From a virus (Duplodnaviria; Caudoviricetes): a stretch of DNA of 26,310 bases. The stretch lies in the IMG/VR virus record IMGVR_UViG_3300005805_000412, positions 1-26,310 of that record; one strand, written 5' to 3'. The notes below the pieces were generated by a model, which saw nothing but the letters and a program-made list of their open reading frames with translations, searched no databases and was not told where the DNA came from. Shown here in pieces: positions 4,144 through 23,067 of the stretch. The number at the start of each line of letters is the position of its first letter. Positions within the stretch are counted from its first letter, which is position 1. A program made the position numbers and the translations under genes.

Positions 4144-4693
4144 TAAACCAGAACACTTTGTATGGACTACCGAAATAGTTTGTACTTTCATATCCGATAA
4201 CATTCTCATCCCCAATATCTATAGTCTAAGTATAGGCATGGAGCCTAATACATCAAACACTGATGATATTGATTTGGGGTTTAAAAAATTGAAACATTTT
4301 GTTTCAGACTATCTCCAAAATTCAATTTTTGTTTTTAAAGACTCAGATTTAGTAAAACCACTATCAAAACTAGATACTAATTTAGTTCTATTTCCGGATG
4401 AACCATTTGATTATTTGGTGGCTGCTATTCTATATAGAAAATTTTCTGTAATCACTGACAAATACTTTAGTATTGGATTTATTACCATTGACAGTTCTAT
4501 TGGTGACCATGTACAATACACACTTACCGTGGACTGTGAGGTAGAGTCTGAACTCAATGGTGATTACTGGTGGAACAAAGACAATGTTAACACTGGAACG
4601 GATGATCACACCAGTTGGGACGATCTTAATCTCAAGGAAACTCCACGCTTTTCACCCAAAGTGGTAAAGGGCGGCAAAAGTGAAAACAAATGA
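4133..4693 (+). CDS. Hypothetical protein
   Basis: 186-aa ORF overlapping both neighbours; no motif recognised with confidence. Confidence 0.7.
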   Translation: MLTNKPEHFVWTTEIVCTFISDNILIPNIYSLSIGMEPNTSNTDDIDLGFKKLKHFVSDYLQNSIFVFKDSDLVKPLSKLDTNLVLFPDEPFDYLVAAILYRKFSVITDKYFSIGFITIDSSIGDHVQYTLTVDCEVESELNGDYWWNKDNVNTGTDDHTSWDDLNLKETPRFSPKVVKGGKSENK

Positions 4694-5198
4694 ATTTGGA
4701 CAAGTTGAAGTAACAGAGCAAGAAGCATTCACGGCACTATTACAGAAAAAAATTCCAGATCTTGCTAATGTATTTTTGGAAGATCCTATTGTAATAGATC
4801 AGTATAACACTGCCAGAAACACAAATGCTGATCGCATTCCGCCGCTGCTGGCGCTAGAAGAATTGAAAATTTCTCTAGAAGACTTTGATAAAGTGAATCA
4901 AGAAAAATGGTTCATGCCCCAAGACTATTGCCCAAACCTAATAGAATGGCTGTTTGCTCAGTGCTCAAACGATGAACAGGCTATTAGAGTAAGCGAAGAA
5001 CTGGAATTGTTCATTCAATACAAGATGACGGATGTATTGAGGTATGTTAAATACCTCGTCGATACAATGCGTAAAGAAGGCATAGTATGGGGCGTAGGCA
5101 GAGGCAGTAGTGTAGCTTCCTACGTATTATATTTGATCGGTGTTCATAAAATTGACAGCATCAAATATAATCTTGACATACGTGAATTCTTAAAATAG
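4680..5198 (+). CDS. DNA polymerase III alpha (DnaE)-like fragment (GRGS region only)
   Basis: RVSEELELF...YLVDTMRKEGIVWGVGRGSSVASYVLYLIGVHKIDSIKYNLDIREFL parallels DnaE RL..EL..I....G.GRGS.AGSLV.Y.LGIT.IDP....L.FERFL. It lacks the PHP domain and the PDIDxD catalytic motif. Confidence 0.8.
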   Translation: MKTNEFGQVEVTEQEAFTALLQKKIPDLANVFLEDPIVIDQYNTARNTNADRIPPLLALEELKISLEDFDKVNQEKWFMPQDYCPNLIEWLFAQCSNDEQAIRVSEELELFIQYKMTDVLRYVKYLVDTMRKEGIVWGVGRGSSVASYVLYLIGVHKIDSIKYNLDIREFLK

Positions 5199-8197: not shown

Positions 8198-8203
8198 TAA
8201 ATA
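8198..8203 (+). promoter_or_regulatory. Candidate late promoter (CA)TAAATA
   Basis: CATAAATA is one mismatch from T4 TATAAATA and is followed by AGGA SD and ATG 8222. Confidence 0.55.
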
Positions 8204-8221
8204 ATGTACAGGAACATTCAT

Positions 8222-9520: not shown

Positions 9521-10336
9521 ATGCAAGATTATTATTCTACGCTAGGCGTATCCAGAACAGCAAGCCCAGAAGAAATTAAAAAAGCCTACAGAAAACTGGC
9601 TTCCCAATATCATCCAGATCGCGGAGGCAGTAAAGAAAAGTTTCAAGATATACAGGCTGCTTACGATACACTTAGCGATCCAAACAAAAGACAACAGTAC
9701 GACAACCCGCAGCCACAATTTCATTTCCAGCAGGGAGGGGTTCCTCCAGGTTTTGAAGATTTTTTTGCCAATTTTGGTGCTAGTCCCTTTGGAGACTTTT
9801 TTGGACAACGTCGTCCTAGAAACAGAAATATCAATGTTCAAACCACAATTAGCCTAGAAGAGGCGTTTCATGGCAAGGATATGGTGGCTAATATCACTCT
9901 GCCGAATGGTAGAGATAAAACTTTACAGATTAAAATACCGGCAGGAATCCAAGACGGCACTACACTAAGACTTTCTGGTATTGGAGAGGATGCTATCGCG
10001 GGTGTACCTCCAGGCGACATTTATCTTACTGTGCATGTATTGCCGCATCCTGTATTCCAAAGAAATGGCGACGATCTAATTCAAAATATTAAAATAACCT
10101 GCATAGATGCCATGCTAGGTACCACAGTGCGTATAACAACACTGGATAATAAAAATTTAGATGTGAATATTTTGCCAGGCACACAGCCAGGATCAGTGTT
10201 AAGTATTTCTGGACATGGAATGCCTATGATGGCTGACCAAAGATTGAAAGGCAGATTGTTACTGCAAATACTGGTAGAAATTCCAACCAATTTAACAGAA
10301 CAACAAAAAAACATTTTACAATTTAATTTTACTTAA
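9521..10336 (+). CDS. dnaJ: DnaJ-family co-chaperone, type II (CbpA-like, no zinc finger)
   Basis: DYYSTLGV..AS.EEIKKAYRKLA..YHPD J-domain, G/F-rich linker, C-terminal domain (ISLEEAFHG; IPAG; GDIY; GDDL). No CxxCxGxG repeats. Confidence 0.92.
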   Translation: MQDYYSTLGVSRTASPEEIKKAYRKLASQYHPDRGGSKEKFQDIQAAYDTLSDPNKRQQYDNPQPQFHFQQGGVPPGFEDFFANFGASPFGDFFGQRRPRNRNINVQTTISLEEAFHGKDMVANITLPNGRDKTLQIKIPAGIQDGTTLRLSGIGEDAIAGVPPGDIYLTVHVLPHPVFQRNGDDLIQNIKITCIDAMLGTTVRITTLDNKNLDVNILPGTQPGSVLSISGHGMPMMADQRLKGRLLLQILVEIPTNLTEQQKNILQFNFT

Positions 10337-10339
10337 ATA
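10334..10339 (+). promoter_or_regulatory. Candidate late promoter TAAATA overlapping the dnaJ stop
   Basis: TAAATA 5 nt before ATG 10345; no SD. Confidence 0.4.
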
Positions 10340-10344
10340 TTTTT

Positions 10345-10854
10345 ATGCTAAAAATAGTTAAATTTCCCGATCCAATACTTCGGGAGAAAATGCCCTTATT
10401 TAATTTTGATAATCCTTCTCACGATCCAAAACAGCTAGAGAAAGATTTAATCTTAGCTATGTTTGCTAACAACGGTATGGGCCTTAGTTGTAACCAAGTA
10501 GGTATACGAGTAAGAATGTTTGTAATGGGTCATCAAAGCGATCCGCAATCTGCTGCTGCATTTTATAATCCAGAAGTATTAGCCACAGTGGAATCTATGG
10601 ACGATCTAGAGGAAGGTTGTTTGAGTTTTCCAGGTATATATGTTAAAATTAAAAGACCTATTAAGATCAAAGTAAGATGGCAAAACAGCAGTGGCGAAAT
10701 TCAAGAAGGTGTTTTTGAAAACTACGCAGCAAAATGCTTTTTGCATGAATTAGACCATTTAGAAGGTATTGTTTTTAAAGACAGAACTAGCGATTTAAAA
10801 TGGACTAGTGCTGTTAAAAAAAGTATAAAAGAAAATAAAAGGAAAAATTTTTAA
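10345..10854 (+). CDS. def: Peptide deformylase
   Basis: Motifs GMGLSCNQ (GxGxAAxQ variant), EGCLS and HELDH. Confidence 0.93.
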   Translation: MLKIVKFPDPILREKMPLFNFDNPSHDPKQLEKDLILAMFANNGMGLSCNQVGIRVRMFVMGHQSDPQSAAAFYNPEVLATVESMDDLEEGCLSFPGIYVKIKRPIKIKVRWQNSSGEIQEGVFENYAAKCFLHELDHLEGIVFKDRTSDLKWTSAVKKSIKENKRKNF

Positions 10855-13130
10855 TGTTAGAGCCAAATAAAAGTTTAGAAAATATTTTTGAAAATTCTGT
10901 AAATCTAGCAATTCAGAAAAATCACGAGTACCTTACACTAGAACATTTTTTGTTTAGTTTATTAGATGATAGTAAATTTGCAGAAATTTTAACTGCATTT
11001 GGTACGGACGTTTCTACATTAAAAACTGACGTTTTAAATTACATCGATAACAAACTAACAGAACTGACTTGCAATGATTCAGAACGACCAAAAAAGACAC
11101 AGACTGTAGAACGAGTGCTTAACCGTGCATTTACGCAAGTATTGTTCAGCGGTAGGCAAGTTATTGAACCATTAGACTGTTTTATCAGTATTTTTTCAGA
11201 AAAAAAGAGTTATGCACACTTCTTCGTTAAAAAAGCAAACATTGATAAAGAACAATTTTTGCATTTTGTTAAAAAAGAAGTTGACAGGGAAGAAACTGAA
11301 CTAGATACCGTAGATAAAAAACAGTTTAATCCACAGTTAGAAAAAGTTCTAAGTCAGTTTACAGTAAATCTTACTGCCAAGGCTAAATCTAAAAAAATTG
11401 ATCCTGTTATTGGTAGGGACAGAGAAATTGAAGAGCTACTATTAATTCTAGCAAGACGTGTGAAGTCTAATGCTATACTTGTTGGCGACCCGGGCGTAGG
11501 TAAGACTGCAATCGCCGAAGGGCTAGCCCGTAAAATTATTGAAGGTGATGTACCAAACTTTGTCAAAGACCACACACTGTACAGCCTGGATATCAGTGCT
11601 ATTCTAGCAGGAAGCAAGTACAGAGGTGATTTTGAAGAACGTCTCAAGGGCGTTATAAGTGCTATTGAAAAGAAAGGAAACTGTATTGTTTTTATTGACG
11701 AAGCACATATGATGAATGGCGCAGGGGCTAACACAGGTAATAGCAACGACATGGCTAACATGTTGAAAAGCACATTAAGCAAGGGCAGTATCAAATTCAT
11801 TGCCAGTACTACCTGGGAAGAATGGCGCAAATATTTTGAAAAAGACCGTGCGTTGATGCGTCGCTTTCAGCGTGTAGTCATCGACGAGCCCGATGAAATT
11901 ACTACCATTAAGATTATCAAGGGTCTAAAAAAATATTACGAGCGCCATCACAAAGTTAAAATTACATCTCAGGCTATTACGGATGCTGTCAAATACAGTA
12001 TCAAATATATGAGCGATAAAAAGTTGCCGGACAAGGCGATTGATGTGCTAGATCGCGCTGCCGCCAGATTCAAAATTAAAAACGAAGAGAATGGCGTGGT
12101 AGATCATGATGAAATTGTTTTTGAGATCAGCAAGCTTTGTAATCTTCCTTTGGAACAGATTGGCAATAAAGAAAGTGTAAATCTTGGCAGCTTAGAGAAG
12201 AACATGCGATCCACTGTTTACGGACAAGACAAGGCCATTGACAGCATATTGGATAAGATCTATATCAGCCAAGCGGGATTAAAGGTTCTTAACAGACCTG
12301 TAGGCAACTTCCTCTTTGTAGGACCAACTGGCGTAGGTAAAACAGAAGCAGCAAAACAACTAGCGGCAAATCTTGGAGTCAAATTAGTTAGATTTGACAT
12401 GAGTGAATTCCAAGAAAAACACAGCGTGAGCAAGTTTATTGGTAGTCCTCCAGGATATGTAGGCTTTGAAGATAACGCTGGACAGTTAATTACCAGCCTG
12501 CAAGAAAATCCTAATTGTGTGTTATTGTTAGACGAAGTTGAAAAAGCACATCCAGATGTGTTAACAGTGCTGTTGCAGATTATGGATAATGGTTTTATCA
12601 CTGGCAGCAACGGCAAAAAGGCAGATGCTAGACAGGCTATCATTATTATGACTAGCAATCTAGGTGCTGCAGACGCCGAAAAGAACGCTGTAGGCTTTGG
12701 TAGTTTGGAAAGAGATAGCGATCCTAAAGACGCAGTCAATAGATTTTTTGCGCCAGAGTTTCGTAACAGACTAGATGGTATTATAAGATTCAGCAAACTA
12801 GATCGTTCAACGATGGTTAAGATTGTCAAAAAGTTTATCGACGAATTAAATCAACTTGTAAAAGACAAAAATATTTCCATTAAACTTGCGGACAATGCTG
12901 TAGAATATCTTATCGACAAAGGATTTGACAGCAAAATGGGTGCAAGGCCTTTACAACGTACTATCGATGAAATGATTAAAAAACCAATGAGTAAAGAAAT
13001 ACTTTTTGGTAAGTTAATCAATGGGGGAGTTGTTGAGGTAGATGTAGATCAGGATAAACTAATTCTTAACATTTTAGATATATTGCCCGTAAAAAAAATA
13101 AAAGATGTTGTTGAAGAAAACATTAACTAG
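10854..13130 (+). CDS. clpA: ClpA-like Hsp100 ATPase
   Basis: Clp N-domain (HEYLTLEH), NBD1 (GDPGVGKT, KYRG, IDEAH), NBD2 (GPTGVGKT, GYVG, LLDEVEKAH), VGF loop for ClpP binding, GARPL. No ClpB middle coiled coil; 758 aa. Confidence 0.92.
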   Translation: MLEPNKSLENIFENSVNLAIQKNHEYLTLEHFLFSLLDDSKFAEILTAFGTDVSTLKTDVLNYIDNKLTELTCNDSERPKKTQTVERVLNRAFTQVLFSGRQVIEPLDCFISIFSEKKSYAHFFVKKANIDKEQFLHFVKKEVDREETELDTVDKKQFNPQLEKVLSQFTVNLTAKAKSKKIDPVIGRDREIEELLLILARRVKSNAILVGDPGVGKTAIAEGLARKIIEGDVPNFVKDHTLYSLDISAILAGSKYRGDFEERLKGVISAIEKKGNCIVFIDEAHMMNGAGANTGNSNDMANMLKSTLSKGSIKFIASTTWEEWRKYFEKDRALMRRFQRVVIDEPDEITTIKIIKGLKKYYERHHKVKITSQAITDAVKYSIKYMSDKKLPDKAIDVLDRAAARFKIKNEENGVVDHDEIVFEISKLCNLPLEQIGNKESVNLGSLEKNMRSTVYGQDKAIDSILDKIYISQAGLKVLNRPVGNFLFVGPTGVGKTEAAKQLAANLGVKLVRFDMSEFQEKHSVSKFIGSPPGYVGFEDNAGQLITSLQENPNCVLLLDEVEKAHPDVLTVLLQIMDNGFITGSNGKKADARQAIIIMTSNLGAADAEKNAVGFGSLERDSDPKDAVNRFFAPEFRNRLDGIIRFSKLDRSTMVKIVKKFIDELNQLVKDKNISIKLADNAVEYLIDKGFDSKMGARPLQRTIDEMIKKPMSKEILFGKLINGGVVEVDVDQDKLILNILDILPVKKIKDVVEENIN

Positions 13131-15807: not shown

Positions 15808-15813
15808 TAAATA
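15808..15813 (+). promoter_or_regulatory. Candidate late promoter TAAATA
   Basis: TAAATA 5 nt before ATG 15819. Confidence 0.5.
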
Positions 15814-15818
15814 TACAT

Positions 15819-16220
15819 ATGCGTTTACATGAACTATTAAAAGAAGAAACTATACAAATTGGGGATCATTTTGATCTAGAATTAGGCGATTTAGTAATAG
15901 AAACCGTGGTTGTGGACCTAAACAACGACGGTATAGTTATTGCTGTGGATGATACCGCAATGACTTATATTAATTTAACAGAAGCCAAATATCAGGGACG
16001 CGAAGTACCGCTCGGTAAACCCATGGCCGGGGATGTTAAGAAACGCAAAGTTTATGTAAAAAAGCCAAACGGCAAGGTTGTCAAAGTAAACTTTGGCGAC
16101 AAGAAAATGCGCATTAAAAAATCAAATCCAAAGCGTCGTAAAAGTTTCCGTGCAAGACACAATTGCAAAAATCCTGGTCCACGCTGGAAAGCACGTTACT
16201 GGTCTTGCAGGGCTTGGTGA
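15819..16220 (+). CDS. Hypothetical protein; acidic N-half, very basic C-half (possible head-packaged DNA-binding protein)
   Basis: MRLHELLKE start, LTE^A site, then K/R-rich ...SFRARHNC...ARYWSC motif. Confidence 0.7.
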   Translation: MRLHELLKEETIQIGDHFDLELGDLVIETVVVDLNNDGIVIAVDDTAMTYINLTEAKYQGREVPLGKPMAGDVKKRKVYVKKPNGKVVKVNFGDKKMRIKKSNPKRRKSFRARHNCKNPGPRWKARYWSCRAW

Positions 16221-16798: not shown

Positions 16799-17233
16799 AT
16801 GGAACGTTTGATTAAAGTTAGTAAAGTTGCTTTTGCCAGCGAATTTAGCTTTTATTTAAAAGCACATAATTTTCATTGGAACGTAGAAGGTTCTGACTTT
16901 TTAGAATACCATGATCTGTTTGGCAAAATCTACGAAGAAGTATACGGCAAGATTGATGACTTTGCAGAAAAAATTCGCAGTATCGGCAGTTATGTTCCCG
17001 GTAGTTATGATCGATTCAACATGCTTTCTAAGATACAAGATGAAACAAATGTCTTAGATAAGGATCAAATGGTAAAAGAGTTACTGCTAGATAATGAAAA
17101 GATGATCAAAATTTTTAAGTTTGCCTATGACGCAGCAGAAGCAGAAGGCGAACATGGATTTTCAAACTTCCTAGCAGAACGCATGGATGCCCATCGTAAA
17201 CACGGTTGGATGTTGCGAGCAAGTCTAAAATGA
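16799..17233 (+). CDS. dps: Dps / ferritin-like protein
   Basis: HNFHWNVEG..F...HDLF...YEE....DDFAEKIR ferroxidase signature; C-terminal HRKHGWML. Confidence 0.92.
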   Translation: MERLIKVSKVAFASEFSFYLKAHNFHWNVEGSDFLEYHDLFGKIYEEVYGKIDDFAEKIRSIGSYVPGSYDRFNMLSKIQDETNVLDKDQMVKELLLDNEKMIKIFKFAYDAAEAEGEHGFSNFLAERMDAHRKHGWMLRASLK

Positions 17234-19372: not shown

Positions 19373-19401
19373 TTGACTTTAAATACAGATCAAGTTATTA
19401 T
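19373..19401 (+). promoter_or_regulatory. Sigma70-type promoter with TAAATA embedded in the spacer
   Basis: TTGACT (19373-19378), 17-nt spacer, TATTAT (19396-19401); TAAATA at 19380-19385; AAGGAG SD downstream. Confidence 0.65.
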
Positions 19402-19422: not shown

Positions 19423-19692
19423 ATGAGTAAAGTATTTGGCGCTCCCGAGCAAGCTAAAATTAAACAAATCGTATCAGAAGGCGTAACTGTAATGCAGGAA
19501 ATCTCAGATCTGCAGGAAGGTCTTAATGAAACAATTAAAGCTGTAGCAGAAGAGCTAGAAGTTAAACCTGGTGTAATTAAAAAAGCAATTAAGATTGCCC
19601 AAAAAGGCGAATGGGATCAAGTTCTCAGCGAGTTTGATGATTTAGAAAGCATTGTAGATATTAGCGGACACGGTTCTTCTAAGAATCCTTAA
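19423..19692 (+). CDS. dsDNA-binding protein, T4 DsbA/GapR-like
   Basis: 89-aa helical protein with IKAVAEELEVKPGVIKKAIKI pattern and an acidic C-terminal helix, similar in size and pattern to T4 DsbA. Confidence 0.65.
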   Translation: MSKVFGAPEQAKIKQIVSEGVTVMQEISDLQEGLNETIKAVAEELEVKPGVIKKAIKIAQKGEWDQVLSEFDDLESIVDISGHGSSKNP

Positions 19693-20318
19693 TGCTTAAA
19701 CATTTAGGAAAAATCAAGTTTATCGGCGACTTAAGTATGGAAGACGCCGATATTCTTACCAAATATGCCAAACAGTCTATTAATATTTTAGAGTTTGGTG
19801 TAGGCGGAAGTACGCAGATACTGTCGCAATGTTTGCCGCAGCGACTGATTTCGGTTGATACTGTGGAAACTGGAGGCGACAAATGGATCGCGGTTACTAG
19901 GGATAGAATTAATAAACTAGAACATAAAACCAATCCAGAATTTTTTGATCTTTTTGATTTTTTACCTAACATTCCAAAGCTTTCTTTTGATTTAATTTTT
20001 GTAGATGGTGTATGGTGGCAGCGCAGACCGTTTGCAGATGCAACTTGGCCCTTGCTAGCAGTTGGCGGTGTGATACTGTTTCACGACACTAGAAGAAAAA
20101 TAGACTCAGACAATGCGATAGACTTTGCAAAAGAATATTTTGAAGAAATTTCTAATGTAGAGTTGAACGCCGTTGCCTCTAACGGTAAAAGTAGTAATAC
20201 AACTGTTATACATAAAAAAATAAAAGAGCCGTATGTAAATTGGAATAATACTGAGAATAAGCCTGCATGGGCATACGGAGATCCCAGTTATACAGGCGAT
20301 CTTGTATCCTGGCAATAA
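19692..20318 (+). CDS. Class I SAM-dependent methyltransferase
   Basis: ILEFGVGGST (motif I), ISVD, FDLIFVDG, L..GGVILFHD. No DPPY/NPPY or PC motif, so not a classical DNA MTase. Confidence 0.8.
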   Translation: MLKHLGKIKFIGDLSMEDADILTKYAKQSINILEFGVGGSTQILSQCLPQRLISVDTVETGGDKWIAVTRDRINKLEHKTNPEFFDLFDFLPNIPKLSFDLIFVDGVWWQRRPFADATWPLLAVGGVILFHDTRRKIDSDNAIDFAKEYFEEISNVELNAVASNGKSSNTTVIHKKIKEPYVNWNNTENKPAWAYGDPSYTGDLVSWQ

Positions 20319-20330
20319 ATAAAATTGTAA

Positions 20331-20389
20331 AAGGCACAGCGAGCCACAAGTCGCACAAGTGAAGGTATGCCGGCCATAAACGGTAAGGA
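20331..20389 (+). promoter_or_regulatory. Tandem hairpin element in the DNA polymerase 5' leader (candidate translational operator)
   Basis: GCGA-GCCACAAG-TCGC (20339-20354) and GCCG-GCCATAAA-CGGT (20369-20384), 30-nt period, abutting SD AAGGA. TAAATA lies upstream at 20316-20321. Confidence 0.6.
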
Positions 20390-20397
20390 AGAAAAAT

Positions 20398-23067
20398 ATG
20401 AGTTACGTAGACGCGAATTGGGATCGCGATAAAGACATTGTTCGAGTCGTCGAACGAGATTCAAAAAAAGGCAGACTTTATCAAACATACCCTGCCAGAT
20501 ATTTTTTTTACTACCCAGATCCAAAAGGCAAATACAGATCAATTTACGGTGAATCTTTAAGCAAGGTCAATGCTAAAAGTCACAAAGAATTTGTTAAAGA
20601 ACAGCGCATACACGGTCATCATAGGCTGTTTGAAAGCGACATTAATACTGTATTCCGTTGTTTAGAAGAAAATTATCTCGGTAAAGAATCTCCTAAACTT
20701 AATGTAGCATTTTTCGATATCGAAGTAGACTTTGACCCAGAGCGAGGTTACGCAAGTCCCGAAGATGCCTTTATGCCTATTACTGCTATTGCGGTACATC
20801 TGCAATGGATGGACACGCTAGTATGTCTTGCTGTACCTCCAAAGACACTTACTATAGAGCAGGCAACTGAGCAGGTAAAAGATTTCCCTAATACTATTCT
20901 TTTTGAAACTGAATATGAAATGCTAGATGCGTTCTTAAATCTCATTGAAGATGCAGATGTTCTAAGCGGTTGGAACTCAGAAGGATATGATATACCCTAC
21001 ACAGTCAATCGTGTTACAAAGGTGTTAAGCAAAGAAGATACCCGCAGATTTTGCTTGTGGGATGAGCTTCCTAAGAAAAGAGAATACGAAAAATACGGTA
21101 AAACTGCGGTTACCTATGACCTTATTGGCAGAGTGCATTTAGACAGTCTCGAACTTTATAGAAAATATACATACGAAGAACGCCATACATACAGACTAGA
21201 TGCAATTGGTGAAATGGAAGTAGGTGAGAGCAAAACAGTTTACGAAGGAACATTGGATCAACTCTATAACAACGACTTCCGTAAGTTTATTGAATATAAC
21301 AGACAAGACTGTGCTCTATTAAACAAACTAGATCGTAAACTAAAGTTTATTGACCTAGCAAACACCATTGCACATGAAAACACTGTTTTATTGTCAACAA
21401 CTATGGGAGCAGTGGCGGTTACAGAACAGGCCATCGTGAACGAAGCACATCATAGAGGACTTATTGTTCCTAGTAGACCAAAAAGAGACGAGGAAGAAAA
21501 TAATCAGGCTGCGGGTGCCTATGTAGCATATCCCAAGAAAGGATTACATGATTGGATTGGATCTATGGACATTAACAGTCTTTATCCGTCTGTTATTCGT
21601 GCATTGAACATGGGACCAGAAACCATTGTAGGACAGCTACGCCAGGATTATACCAAAGCAGAAATTGAAAATAAAATCAATAAAGGATCTAGTTTTGCTG
21701 GAGCCTGGGAAGGAAAGTTTGGCACTAACGAATATGAATTTGTAATGGCGCAAGATCGTACTAACGATATTGTTGTAGATTGGGAAAACGGCAGCACGGA
21801 TATAATGAGCGGCGCACAAATCTACGAAATGATTTTCAACAGTGGTAAGCCGTGGATGTTGAGTGCTAACGGCACTATTTTTACTTCTGAATCAGAAGGT
21901 GTAATTCCTGGACTACTGAAGCGTTGGTACGCAGAACGTAAAGAAATGCAGGCCAAACTTAAAGAAGCAATCAAAGCAGAAAACAAAATTGAAGAAGAAT
22001 ACTGGGATAAACGTCAATTAGTTAAGAAAATTAACTTGAACAGTCTGTACGGCGCTATTCTAAATGCGGGCTGCAGATTTTTTGATAACCGCATTGGACA
22101 AAGCACAACTCTTACTGGTAGACAAATTGCCAAACATATGGCCAGTAAAATTAACGAAGTTATCACAGGCGAATATGATCACGTAGGAAAAGCCATTATA
22201 TACGGCGATACTGATAGTGCTTATTTTAGTGCCTACAATAGTCTCAAGAATGAAATCGCCAAGGGCGAAATTGCTTGGGACAAAGACACTGTTATCAAGC
22301 TCTACGACACCGTGGCAAATTCAGTAAATGCTACATTTGCAGAATTCATGCAGGATGCTTTTCATTGTCCAAAAAGTCGCGGGGAAGTAATTAAGGCAGG
22401 ACGAGAAATTGTTGCTGTTAAGGGACTATTCATTACCAAAAAACGCTATGCTGTTCTTTATTTTGATAAAGAAGGCAAGCGTTTAGATATGGACGGCAAG
22501 CCAGGAAAGATCAAGGCTATGGGTTTGGATCTCAAACGCAGCGATACTCCGGAATTCATGCAAAAGTTTCTAGAAGAAGTGCTATCTAAGGTGCTTAACG
22601 GTGCTGAAGAAAAAGAAATTCTAGAACGTATTAGTGAATTCCGTACTGAATTTAAGGCTAGACCTGGTTGGGAAAAAGGATCCCCAAAACGAGCAAACAA
22701 CATCACCGACTACGAAGAAAAAGAACGCAAAGCAGGAAAAGCCAATATGCCCGGACATGTTCGCGCCAGCATCAATTGGAATACACTGCGAAGAATGAAC
22801 GGTGACAAATATAGCATGCAGATTGTAGATGGTATGAAGGTGATCGTATGTAAAGTAAAAGACAATCCCTTAGGATATACCAGTGTTGCCTATCCAACTG
22901 ACGAACTTAGATTACCTAAATGGTTTCAAGAGCTGCCATTTGATCATTCAGAAATGGAAACTACAATCATCAACAACAAATTAGAAAATCTCATTGGGGT
23001 ATTGGAATGGGATTTGGATAGTACAACCCAGACCAATACATTCAATAGTTTATTCAGCTTTGATTGA
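20398..23067 (+). CDS. Family B DNA polymerase (T4 gp43-like) with 3'-5' exonuclease
   Basis: ExoI FDIEVD, ExoII WNSEGYDIPY, ExoIII YNRQD; polymerase motifs DINSLYPS, KINLNSLYG, YGDTDS, KKRY. Confidence 0.96.
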   Translation: MSYVDANWDRDKDIVRVVERDSKKGRLYQTYPARYFFYYPDPKGKYRSIYGESLSKVNAKSHKEFVKEQRIHGHHRLFESDINTVFRCLEENYLGKESPKLNVAFFDIEVDFDPERGYASPEDAFMPITAIAVHLQWMDTLVCLAVPPKTLTIEQATEQVKDFPNTILFETEYEMLDAFLNLIEDADVLSGWNSEGYDIPYTVNRVTKVLSKEDTRRFCLWDELPKKREYEKYGKTAVTYDLIGRVHLDSLELYRKYTYEERHTYRLDAIGEMEVGESKTVYEGTLDQLYNNDFRKFIEYNRQDCALLNKLDRKLKFIDLANTIAHENTVLLSTTMGAVAVTEQAIVNEAHHRGLIVPSRPKRDEEENNQAAGAYVAYPKKGLHDWIGSMDINSLYPSVIRALNMGPETIVGQLRQDYTKAEIENKINKGSSFAGAWEGKFGTNEYEFVMAQDRTNDIVVDWENGSTDIMSGAQIYEMIFNSGKPWMLSANGTIFTSESEGVIPGLLKRWYAERKEMQAKLKEAIKAENKIEEEYWDKRQLVKKINLNSLYGAILNAGCRFFDNRIGQSTTLTGRQIAKHMASKINEVITGEYDHVGKAIIYGDTDSAYFSAYNSLKNEIAKGEIAWDKDTVIKLYDTVANSVNATFAEFMQDAFHCPKSRGEVIKAGREIVAVKGLFITKKRYAVLYFDKEGKRLDMDGKPGKIKAMGLDLKRSDTPEFMQKFLEEVLSKVLNGAEEKEILERISEFRTEFKARPGWEKGSPKRANNITDYEEKERKAGKANMPGHVRASINWNTLRRMNGDKYSMQIVDGMKVIVCKVKDNPLGYTSVAYPTDELRLPKWFQELPFDHSEMETTIINNKLENLIGVLEWDLDSTTQTNTFNSLFSFD

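What the first reader, a model, noticed from the sequence alone, without database searches (positions are those of the whole stretch)
20316..20400. Tandem twin hairpins with a shared 8-nt loop in the DNA polymerase leader: candidate translational autoregulation element
Seen: the 79-nt gap before polB holds two units 30 nt apart, AAGG-caca-GCGA[GCCACAAG]TCGC and AAGG-tat-GCCG[GCCATAAA]CGGT. The stems differ in sequence yet both pair, while the loop GCCAYAAR is kept. The second hairpin abuts the SD (AAGGA 20385-20389). Known: T4 gp43 represses its own translation by binding a short stem with an 8-nt loop just upstream of its SD. Inference: this is a distinct, duplicated operator motif bound by PolB or another replication protein.
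Basis: partly seen in the sequence, partly recalled or inferred. Interest (0 to 1): 0.75.

Follow-up and report, generated by a model that had tools for sequence, protein, structure and literature searches.

The report
Twin pseudoknot operator of phage polymerase
Two small, conserved RNA units, each predicted to fold into a knot, sit just ahead of the ribosome-binding site of the DNA polymerase gene in a large group of uncultured giant aquatic phages, and they likely let the polymerase limit its own production.

Summary
Each 'hairpin with an 8-nt loop' is a predicted compact H-type pseudoknot: a 5' GGY pairs with the loop's RCC, leaving an A-rich 5-nt linker. Both units are present in 68 of 70 distinct polB leaders, and the stems covary strongly. 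The knot helix covaries too: all 13 polB leaders with loop GCU have 5' AGU. A gene-blind scan put 109 of 120 hits before polB. Five large contigs hold one strong copy each, and no RegA. A late-type TAANTA box lies 12-22 nt upstream in 68 of 68. A sister form occurs in relatives at about 60% identity; in 14 of them the stem takes up the SD. Repression is likely; PolB as the binder is inferred from T4 gp43 and untested (about 0.5). There is no Rfam match. An uncurated candidate (DNAVirus_1784, PMC10690425) may be this element; I could not read its alignment. This scan has already reported the element on at least 8 other genomes.

The parts
19373..19401 (+). Sigma-70-like promoter (TTGACT-17-TATTAT) with a TAAATA box inside the spacer; candidate source of early read-through transcripts into polB
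   Evidence: Consensus match 10 of 12 (such matches are at chance frequency in shuffles); TAAATA at 19380. Function inferred.
19423..19692 (+). 89-aa small protein (phrog_12534; phrog_639 'transcriptional regulator') upstream of polB
   Evidence: Similar small proteins lie upstream in the relatives translated.
19692..20318 (+). Methyltransferase-domain gene; the gene directly upstream of the element varies among relatives
   Evidence: Pfam Methyltransf_24; upstream sequences differ.
20316..20321 (+). TAAATA late-type promoter box (overlaps the upstream stop codon); predicted +1 at G20327
   Evidence: TAANTA starts 12-22 nt before unit 1 in 68 of 68 leaders, mode -17, often not the stop codon. 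In G005 the box-to-ATG distance peaks at 4-5 nt. A late-sigma family match is found in 5 of 5 related contigs. The start site is not mapped.
20333..20354 (+). Pseudoknot unit 1: S1 GGC 20333-35 with GCC 20343-45; S2 GCGA 20339-42 with UCGC 20351-54; linker ACA; A-rich linker ACAAG 20346-50
20364..20385 (+). Pseudoknot unit 2: S1 GGU 20364-66 with GCC 20373-75; S2 UGCCG 20368-72 with CGGUA 20381-85; A-rich linker AUAAA 20376-80
20385..20389 (+). Shine-Dalgarno-like AAGGA directly after unit 2
   Evidence: Sequence. The SD GG begins 1-7 nt (mode 3) after the fourth S2 base in the unit-2 set.
20398..23067 (+). Family B DNA polymerase, 889 aa, gp43-like
   Evidence: Pfam DNA_pol_B and exo1; phrog_262; best PDB matches E about 1e-62; 43-51% identity to the PolB of cultured jumbo phages.

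Best explanation
The 79-nt gap before polB holds two conserved units that are predicted to fold in the mRNA as compact H-type pseudoknots against the ribosome-binding site, and they likely form a translational operator that spare PolB would bind to block its own translation. Shown by sequence comparison: both helices of the unit, the tandem layout, the fixed spacing to a TAANTA box upstream and to the SD downstream, the link to polB, and a single strong copy per contig. Inferred: transcription from the late-type promoter starting about 6 nt before unit 1; the two helices stacking into a short duplex braced by the linker adenines; recognition by shape; repression. Least certain: that the binder is PolB. 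The proposed logic is that polB has its own late promoter, so its message rises while replication runs, and PolB not engaged on DNA would feed back on translation, as T4 gp43 does.
For: Structure: 89.3% of cells paired against 70.3% shuffled; 198 double-sided changes against 71; all slid registers at 22-40% (66 sequences). Knot helix, tested with the partner left free: of 22 hits for a non-C third loop base, 13 were polB leaders, all with U and all with 5' AGU (two at a shifted gap of 6 or 8 nt). Of 12 hits for a non-G first base, 11 were polB leaders, all A with U. The one polB hit among 117 metagenome hits was also AGU/GCU. These are 8 distinct leaders needing 4 changes on a quick tree, 2 forced by strong branches. 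ACC went with GGU in 7 leaders. The sister lineage has AGY/GCU in 16 of 19 parsed SD-proximal units (the parser prefers pairing partners). RNA rather than DNA: G-U accounts for 23 of 520 unit-2 stem pairs with 0 mismatches (units were selected for pairing). Specificity: 109 of 120 gene-blind hits precede polB; there is one strong CM hit in each of 5 contigs, including the 99%-complete G005; loose single units in G005 are at chance level (10 against 3-12); no RegA in 5 of 5 contigs; the SSB leaders carry a different element. Direction: in 14 of 32 sister-form leaders the stem's 3' strand contains the SD GG. Precedent: gp43 autorepression and the gene 32 pseudoknot (PMC3014915, passages read).
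Against: There are no binding or expression data, and RNA contigs could not show transcript ends. The T4/RB69 operator is a plain hairpin with no evidence of a pseudoknot, and some T4-related gp43 proteins do not autoregulate. In the twin form the SD itself stays unpaired, and a nested-fold model prefers a competing fold for unit 1. The element is dispensable: it is absent from L049 (76% identity), from 6 of 6 cultured relatives inspected, and from 33 of 69 distant leaders within 700 nt (two of those, L582 and L597, have a degenerate unit by eye). In 12 loci it heads an inserted gene rather than polB. Eleven of these overlap the polB start, but so do about 20 of the 33 motif-less ones, so the overlap is weak support. 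Shuffles of the AGU/GCU label on the tree gave as few changes in 55 of 500, and the tree is weakly resolved. No unit-2 AGU/GCU variant was found in the twin lineage.
Confidence: 0.5

Rival explanations
1. The same RNA operator is bound by another phage protein, such as the gp32-like SSB, the small upstream regulator-like protein or an unknown repressor.
For: T4 gp32 binds a leader pseudoknot. A gp32-like gene is present in 4 of 5 contigs. The small protein lies upstream of polB in the relatives checked.
Against: There is only one target per contig and no RegA. The SSB leaders use a different motif and do not match the model.
Confidence: 0.17
2. No regulator is involved: the knots constitutively damp initiation and/or protect the 5' end of a strong late transcript.
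For: The element starts about 6 nt after the predicted +1. The conserved bases (S1 and the linker AA) are those that would brace an H-type fold (general knowledge). The stem overlaps the SD in 14 sister leaders.
Against: A plain hairpin would do this job. The near-fixed S1 sequence, the 5-nt linker, the invariant A at -2 (68 of 68) and the duplication suggest specific recognition. No copy precedes other late genes.
Confidence: 0.15
3. The element is a positive translation enhancer: a standby or loading site for host ribosomal protein S1.
For: A 5' pseudoknot is essential for S1-dependent standby on tisB mRNA, and S1 unfolds pseudoknots (PMC7708055, PMC7038950; search listing and abstract starts only).
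Against: Standby serves a sequestered RBS about 100 nt away, whereas here the SD is adjacent and mostly free. An enhancer would be expected before other genes as well.
Confidence: 0.1
4. The element is a tandem small-molecule riboswitch, for example for a nucleotide or a deazaguanine precursor, that gates polymerase synthesis.
For: Compact H-type folds next to an SD are typical of preQ1-I, SAM-II and guanidine-III riboswitches (recalled). The layout is tandem, and the SD lies inside the stem in the sister form.
Against: There is no Rfam match. L1 and S2 are free in sequence, the junction pair varies as U-G, C-G or U-A, and no unpaired L2 is left, so there is no conserved pocket.
Confidence: 0.06
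5. The element acts as DNA, for example as an operator or hairpin for a DNA-binding protein just downstream of the promoter.
For: It has a fixed distance to the TAANTA box.
Against: G-U-type pairs are tolerated on one strand only, the stems covary without keeping their sequence, and the spacing to the SD is fixed.
Confidence: 0.02

Closest known systems
Gene 43 (DNA polymerase) translational operator of T4, RB69 and RB49 (PMC3014915, passages read)
   Same: Structured leader just upstream of the RBS of a gp43-like PolB; A-rich loop ending in AA-like bases; single target gene.
   Different: The T4/RB69 operator is one 16-18-nt hairpin with no evidence of a pseudoknot. This element has two units with a covarying knot helix, stems free in sequence and a dedicated late-type promoter. 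Binding is untested.
Gene 32 (SSB) leader pseudoknot of T4, T2 and RB69 (PMC3014915, passages read)
   Same: H-type pseudoknot with two stacked stems in the leader of a replication gene, used for autoregulation.
   Different: The gene 32 knot is single, lies 67 nt upstream and is followed by a long A+U-rich tract. These units are tandem, have a 3-bp S1, end about 13 nt before the start codon and precede the polymerase.
Candidate structured RNAs DNAVirus_1784, _1407 and _6370 (PMC10690425, supplementary tables read by search)
   Same: They are listed within 25 bp upstream of POLBc genes. DNAVirus_1784 is 79 nt, has 23 sequences, all from freshwater.
   Different: Unknown. The alignments, diagrams and position file could not be read, so identity is neither shown nor excluded. 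The main text has no occurrence of 'polymerase'. DNAVirus_1407 and _6370 are marine.
Small H-type riboswitches (preQ1-I, SAM-II, guanidine-III; recalled)
   Same: Compact pseudoknot with an A-rich linker next to an SD.
   Different: No Rfam match, and no conserved ligand-pocket nucleotides.

Membership tests
T4-type gp43 translational operator | Lies directly upstream of the RBS of a gp43-like PolB | tested here: met
T4-type gp43 translational operator | Single simple hairpin with UAAC/UAAA loop bases and no pseudoknot | tested here: not met
   Two units; the loop pairs with the upstream GGY. UAAA is common in the linker but is not fixed.
T4-type gp43 translational operator | Bound and repressed by the cognate polymerase | not testable with these tools
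   Needs EMSA, toeprint or a reporter.
T4 gene 32 pseudoknot operator | H-type pseudoknot in the leader | tested here: met
   Both helices covary. The fold is predicted, not probed.
T4 gene 32 pseudoknot operator | Upstream of the SSB gene, followed by an unstructured A+U-rich tract to the RBS | tested here: not met
   It precedes polB and abuts the SD; the SSB leaders carry another motif.
RegA-type regulon | regA gene present, with several unstructured targets | tested here: not met
   PF01818 is above cut-off in 0 of 5 contigs, one of them 99% complete; one structured copy per contig.
Known Rfam family or riboswitch | Covariance-model match | tested here: not met
   only a chance snoU61 hit at E 6.7.
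T4-type late promoter | (TA)TAAATA box and a phage late sigma factor | tested here: met
   Box in 68 of 68 leaders; late-sigma family in 5 of 5 related contigs; consensus from PMC2984593 passages.
T4-type late promoter | Mapped 5' end about 6 nt downstream of the box | tested here: inconclusive
   Only assembled contigs were available.

The most novel reading that the evidence does not exclude
A widespread group of aquatic jumbo phages controls its replicative polymerase through a natural tandem-pseudoknot RNA that the polymerase itself binds by shape. This would be a family of polymerase-binding RNAs whose variants (twin, hairpin-plus-knot, SD-sequestering) have evolved alongside PolB, and a second phage example, after gene 32, of a pseudoknot used in translational autoregulation.
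Probability: 0.45. Interest if true: 0.75.

Novelty: new variant of a known kind. Interest (0 to 1): 0.58.

Why it matters
The T4 review (PMC3014915, 2010) notes that the gene 32 pseudoknot may be the only viral pseudoknot used in translational autoregulation, and that no gp43-RNA complex had been solved. A 22-nt unit with well over 100 natural variants and built-in compensatory changes gives a small, directly testable system for how a B-family polymerase recognises RNA. It would also show how uncultured jumbo phages cap polymerase levels when polB has its own late promoter. If the binder is not PolB, it points to an unknown phage regulator.

Tried and rejected
Single-sequence folding and loop counts were uninformative. 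Rfam gave nothing. A shared polB/SSB regulon was suspected from AGUCAGUUGGCU in two SSB leaders and rejected: across 68 distinct SSB leaders this is a separate short hairpin among AGGCA repeats, and it does not match the model. A host-genome counterpart was not found: one exact single-unit pattern gave 4 hits in GTDB genomes, near the roughly 2 I estimated by chance, none with a second unit or SD by eye. RNA runs shared at most 0.13 of sampled words and were contigs only. One RNA contig covers 20068-20388 at 99%, and two probable-DNA records begin at 20325; neither shows a transcript end. Pfam Sigma70_r2 did not detect the late sigma, but PHROGs did. One search used a wrong family accession and is irrelevant. 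The careful tree did not finish, so the quick tree was used, on 111 of 140 leaders with at least 140 aa. Three GGC/ACC rows (L039, L059, L137) are mis-anchored parses and were set aside. The 11 non-polB hits lack stems or an SD by eye (L092 pairs in unit 1 only). Literature searches that found no description of the element: (0 papers each), and listings. Passages of PMC5737381 and of bioRxiv 2026.09.15.751765 had no mention of a polymerase. The primary gp43 operator paper (PMC137073) is not held.

Full report
Observation. Taken alone they are weak: the loop octamer is at chance frequency (3 against 3.95) and the region folds no better than shuffles (z 0.34). The window is part of a T4-like jumbo phage, with tail, clamp-loader, PhoH, DnaJ and Clp genes. 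The downstream gene is an 889-aa family B polymerase, 43-51% identical to those of cultured jumbo phages such as Phosso, Atu_ph07, GAP32 and PBECO4, and closest among solved structures to RB69-type gp43.

Conservation. The 80 closest IMG/VR loci (72-88% identity) plus the window give 70 distinct leaders. Both units are present in 68 (together; each parser misses a subset that the other finds). L061 has the element about 630 nt upstream, ahead of an inserted gene (64.8 bits), and L049 has none. A second, partly overlapping set gave 60 of 65 adjacent and 5 displaced. On 66 aligned leaders, 89.3% of cells pair against 70.3% in shuffles and 22-40% in slid registers, with 198 double-sided changes against 71 (relatedness inflates the shuffle comparison). 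Unit 2's stem is cleaner (95.5%) than unit 1's (82.8%).

It is a pseudoknot. Each unit reads GGY, 1-4 free bases, a 4-6-nt stem strand, RCC, a 5-nt linker with AA at positions 3-4, and the second stem strand. GGY can pair with RCC. Because this helix is nearly invariant, I tested it with collection scans that left the partner free. Of 22 hits with a non-C third loop base, 13 were polB leaders; all had U there and all had AGU upstream. Of 12 hits with a non-G first base, 11 were polB leaders, all A with U. The only polB hit among 117 metagenome hits was again AGU/GCU. These reduce to 8 distinct leaders in the pooled set of 140. They are scattered on a quick PolB tree: 4 changes are needed and 2 are forced by strong branches, but label shuffles were as low in 55 of 500 and the tree is poorly resolved. 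ACC pairs with GGU in 7 leaders; three apparent GGC/ACC rows were mis-anchored and were dropped. A matching scan for unit-2 variants in the twin lineage returned 2 hits, neither a polB leader by eye. G-U pairs are tolerated in the stems (23 of 520 in unit 2), which points to RNA.

A sister form. Among 69 distinct leaders of more distant polymerases (49-64% identity), 32 have one SD-proximal knot, usually preceded by a different hairpin, and 4 more have it displaced by a small ORF. Here S1 is mostly AGU/GCU or GGC/GCC, a second line of covariation, though the parser favours pairing partners. In 14 of the 32 the 3-bp stem ends in CGG or UGG followed by AG, so folding takes up the SD. This is the best evidence that the folded state is repressive. 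The other 33 show no full unit within 700 nt, and about 20 of them have no leader at all because the upstream stop meets the polB start. Six cultured relatives lack the element.

Context. A gene-blind pattern scan found polB downstream in 109 of 120 hits, and the rest lack stems or an SD. The covariance model gave one strong hit per contig in 5 of 5 large contigs (66-81 bits; next best 17.7). Loose single units in the 99%-complete G005 were at chance level. RegA was not found. A TAANTA box starts 12-22 nt before unit 1 in 68 of 68 leaders, mode -17, and is often not the upstream stop codon; an A at -2 is invariant. The box matches the T4/cyanophage late consensus (PMC2984593 passages), and a late-sigma family is present in 5 of 5 contigs. 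In G005 the box-to-ATG distance peaks at 4-5 nt, as for window genes 10345 and 15819. This suggests +1 at G20327, six bases before unit 1. A sigma-70-like site at 19373-19401 could supply early read-through. Available RNA data were contigs and cannot show ends. In the twin form the start codon lies 10-19 nt (mode 13) after the fourth S2 base, and the SD stays unpaired. In 12 loci a gene lies between the element and polB; 11 are small Cys-rich ORFs whose stop overlaps the polB start. This fits control passed on by translational coupling, but such overlaps are common in this group and the ORFs look homologous.

Mechanism. The shown layer is a conserved two-helix unit, duplicated, tied to a late-type box and to the first RBS of the polB message, and single-copy per contig (about 0.93 that it is a functional cis RNA). 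The inferred layer is that a protein recognises the folded shape and blocks 30S loading. A single target, no RegA and the T4 precedent make PolB the best candidate (0.5). T4 gp43 represses its own translation through a hairpin when not engaged in replication, and gp32 does so through a pseudoknot (PMC3014915 passages). The rivals are another phage protein (0.17), a constitutive damper or 5'-end protector (0.15), an S1 standby enhancer (0.10; PMC7708055 and PMC7038950 seen as listings only), a riboswitch (0.06) and a DNA element (0.02).

Comparison and novelty. It would work like the gp43 operator but fails that operator's structural definition, and it has the fold of the gene 32 knot but not its gene or layout. 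Rfam has no match. Full-text searches found no description, but most subscription journals are not covered. The viral structured-RNA survey PMC10690425 lists three uncurated candidates upstream of POLBc genes. DNAVirus_1784 (79 nt, 23 freshwater sequences) could be this element or its sister; the alignment, diagram and position files could not be read. This scan reported the same element on at least 8 other genomes. I reached the pseudoknot reading before that look-up, and those notes are not independent support. Verdict: a real, apparently uncharacterised regulatory RNA, a new variant of a known kind, with the effector untested; interest 0.58.

Noticed in passing
L363-L442, the 150 nt before the gp32-like SSB start (e.g. 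L280:1230-1383): SSB leaders of this phage group carry sigma-70-like and TAAATA boxes, a palindromic hairpin, up to several AGGCA repeats in an A/U-rich tract and, in one subgroup, a covarying AGUCAGUDGGCU hairpin. This is a candidate SSB autoregulatory operator; PMC10690425 lists 12 gp32-leader candidates.
   Followed up: partly
L283, L146, L169, L296, L331, L333, L337, L588, L596, L607, L618, directly before polB: Small (about 45-65 aa) Cys-rich ORFs with a CxxC-x5-C-x3-C-like spacing lie between the element and polB, and their stops overlap the polB start. Function unknown; possibly metal-binding.
   Followed up: partly
window 10334-10347, 15808-15821, 1961-1975, 8198-8206: TAAATA lies 0-6 nt before an ATG; in G005 this distance peaks at 4-5 nt. 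This suggests many leaderless late mRNAs in this phage group.
   Followed up: partly
L084, L085, L086 about 1430-1500 (GAP32, XbC2, PBECO4 polB leaders): These cultured jumbo phages have TAAATA followed by one GC-rich hairpin and a U-rich run at the equivalent place. It could be a terminator of the upstream gene or a simple operator, and it is testable in culture.
   Followed up: no
L146:1428-2448: polB is interrupted after 129 codons and followed by an ORF that looks HNH-like (not scanned).
   Followed up: no
L061 about 875-1485: A roughly 200-aa gene resembling a 2OG-Fe(II) oxygenase (by eye, not scanned) is inserted between the element and polB.
   Followed up: no
window 4680-5198: A 172-aa ORF matches part of the DNA polymerase III alpha domain (PF07733, phrog_11127); a stand-alone fragment beside the GroES-like and clamp-loader genes.
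   Followed up: no
window 9521-13130 and 16799-17233: DnaJ, peptide deformylase, ClpA/B-like ATPase and ferritin/Dps-like genes, typical host-like cargo of jumbo phages.
   Followed up: no
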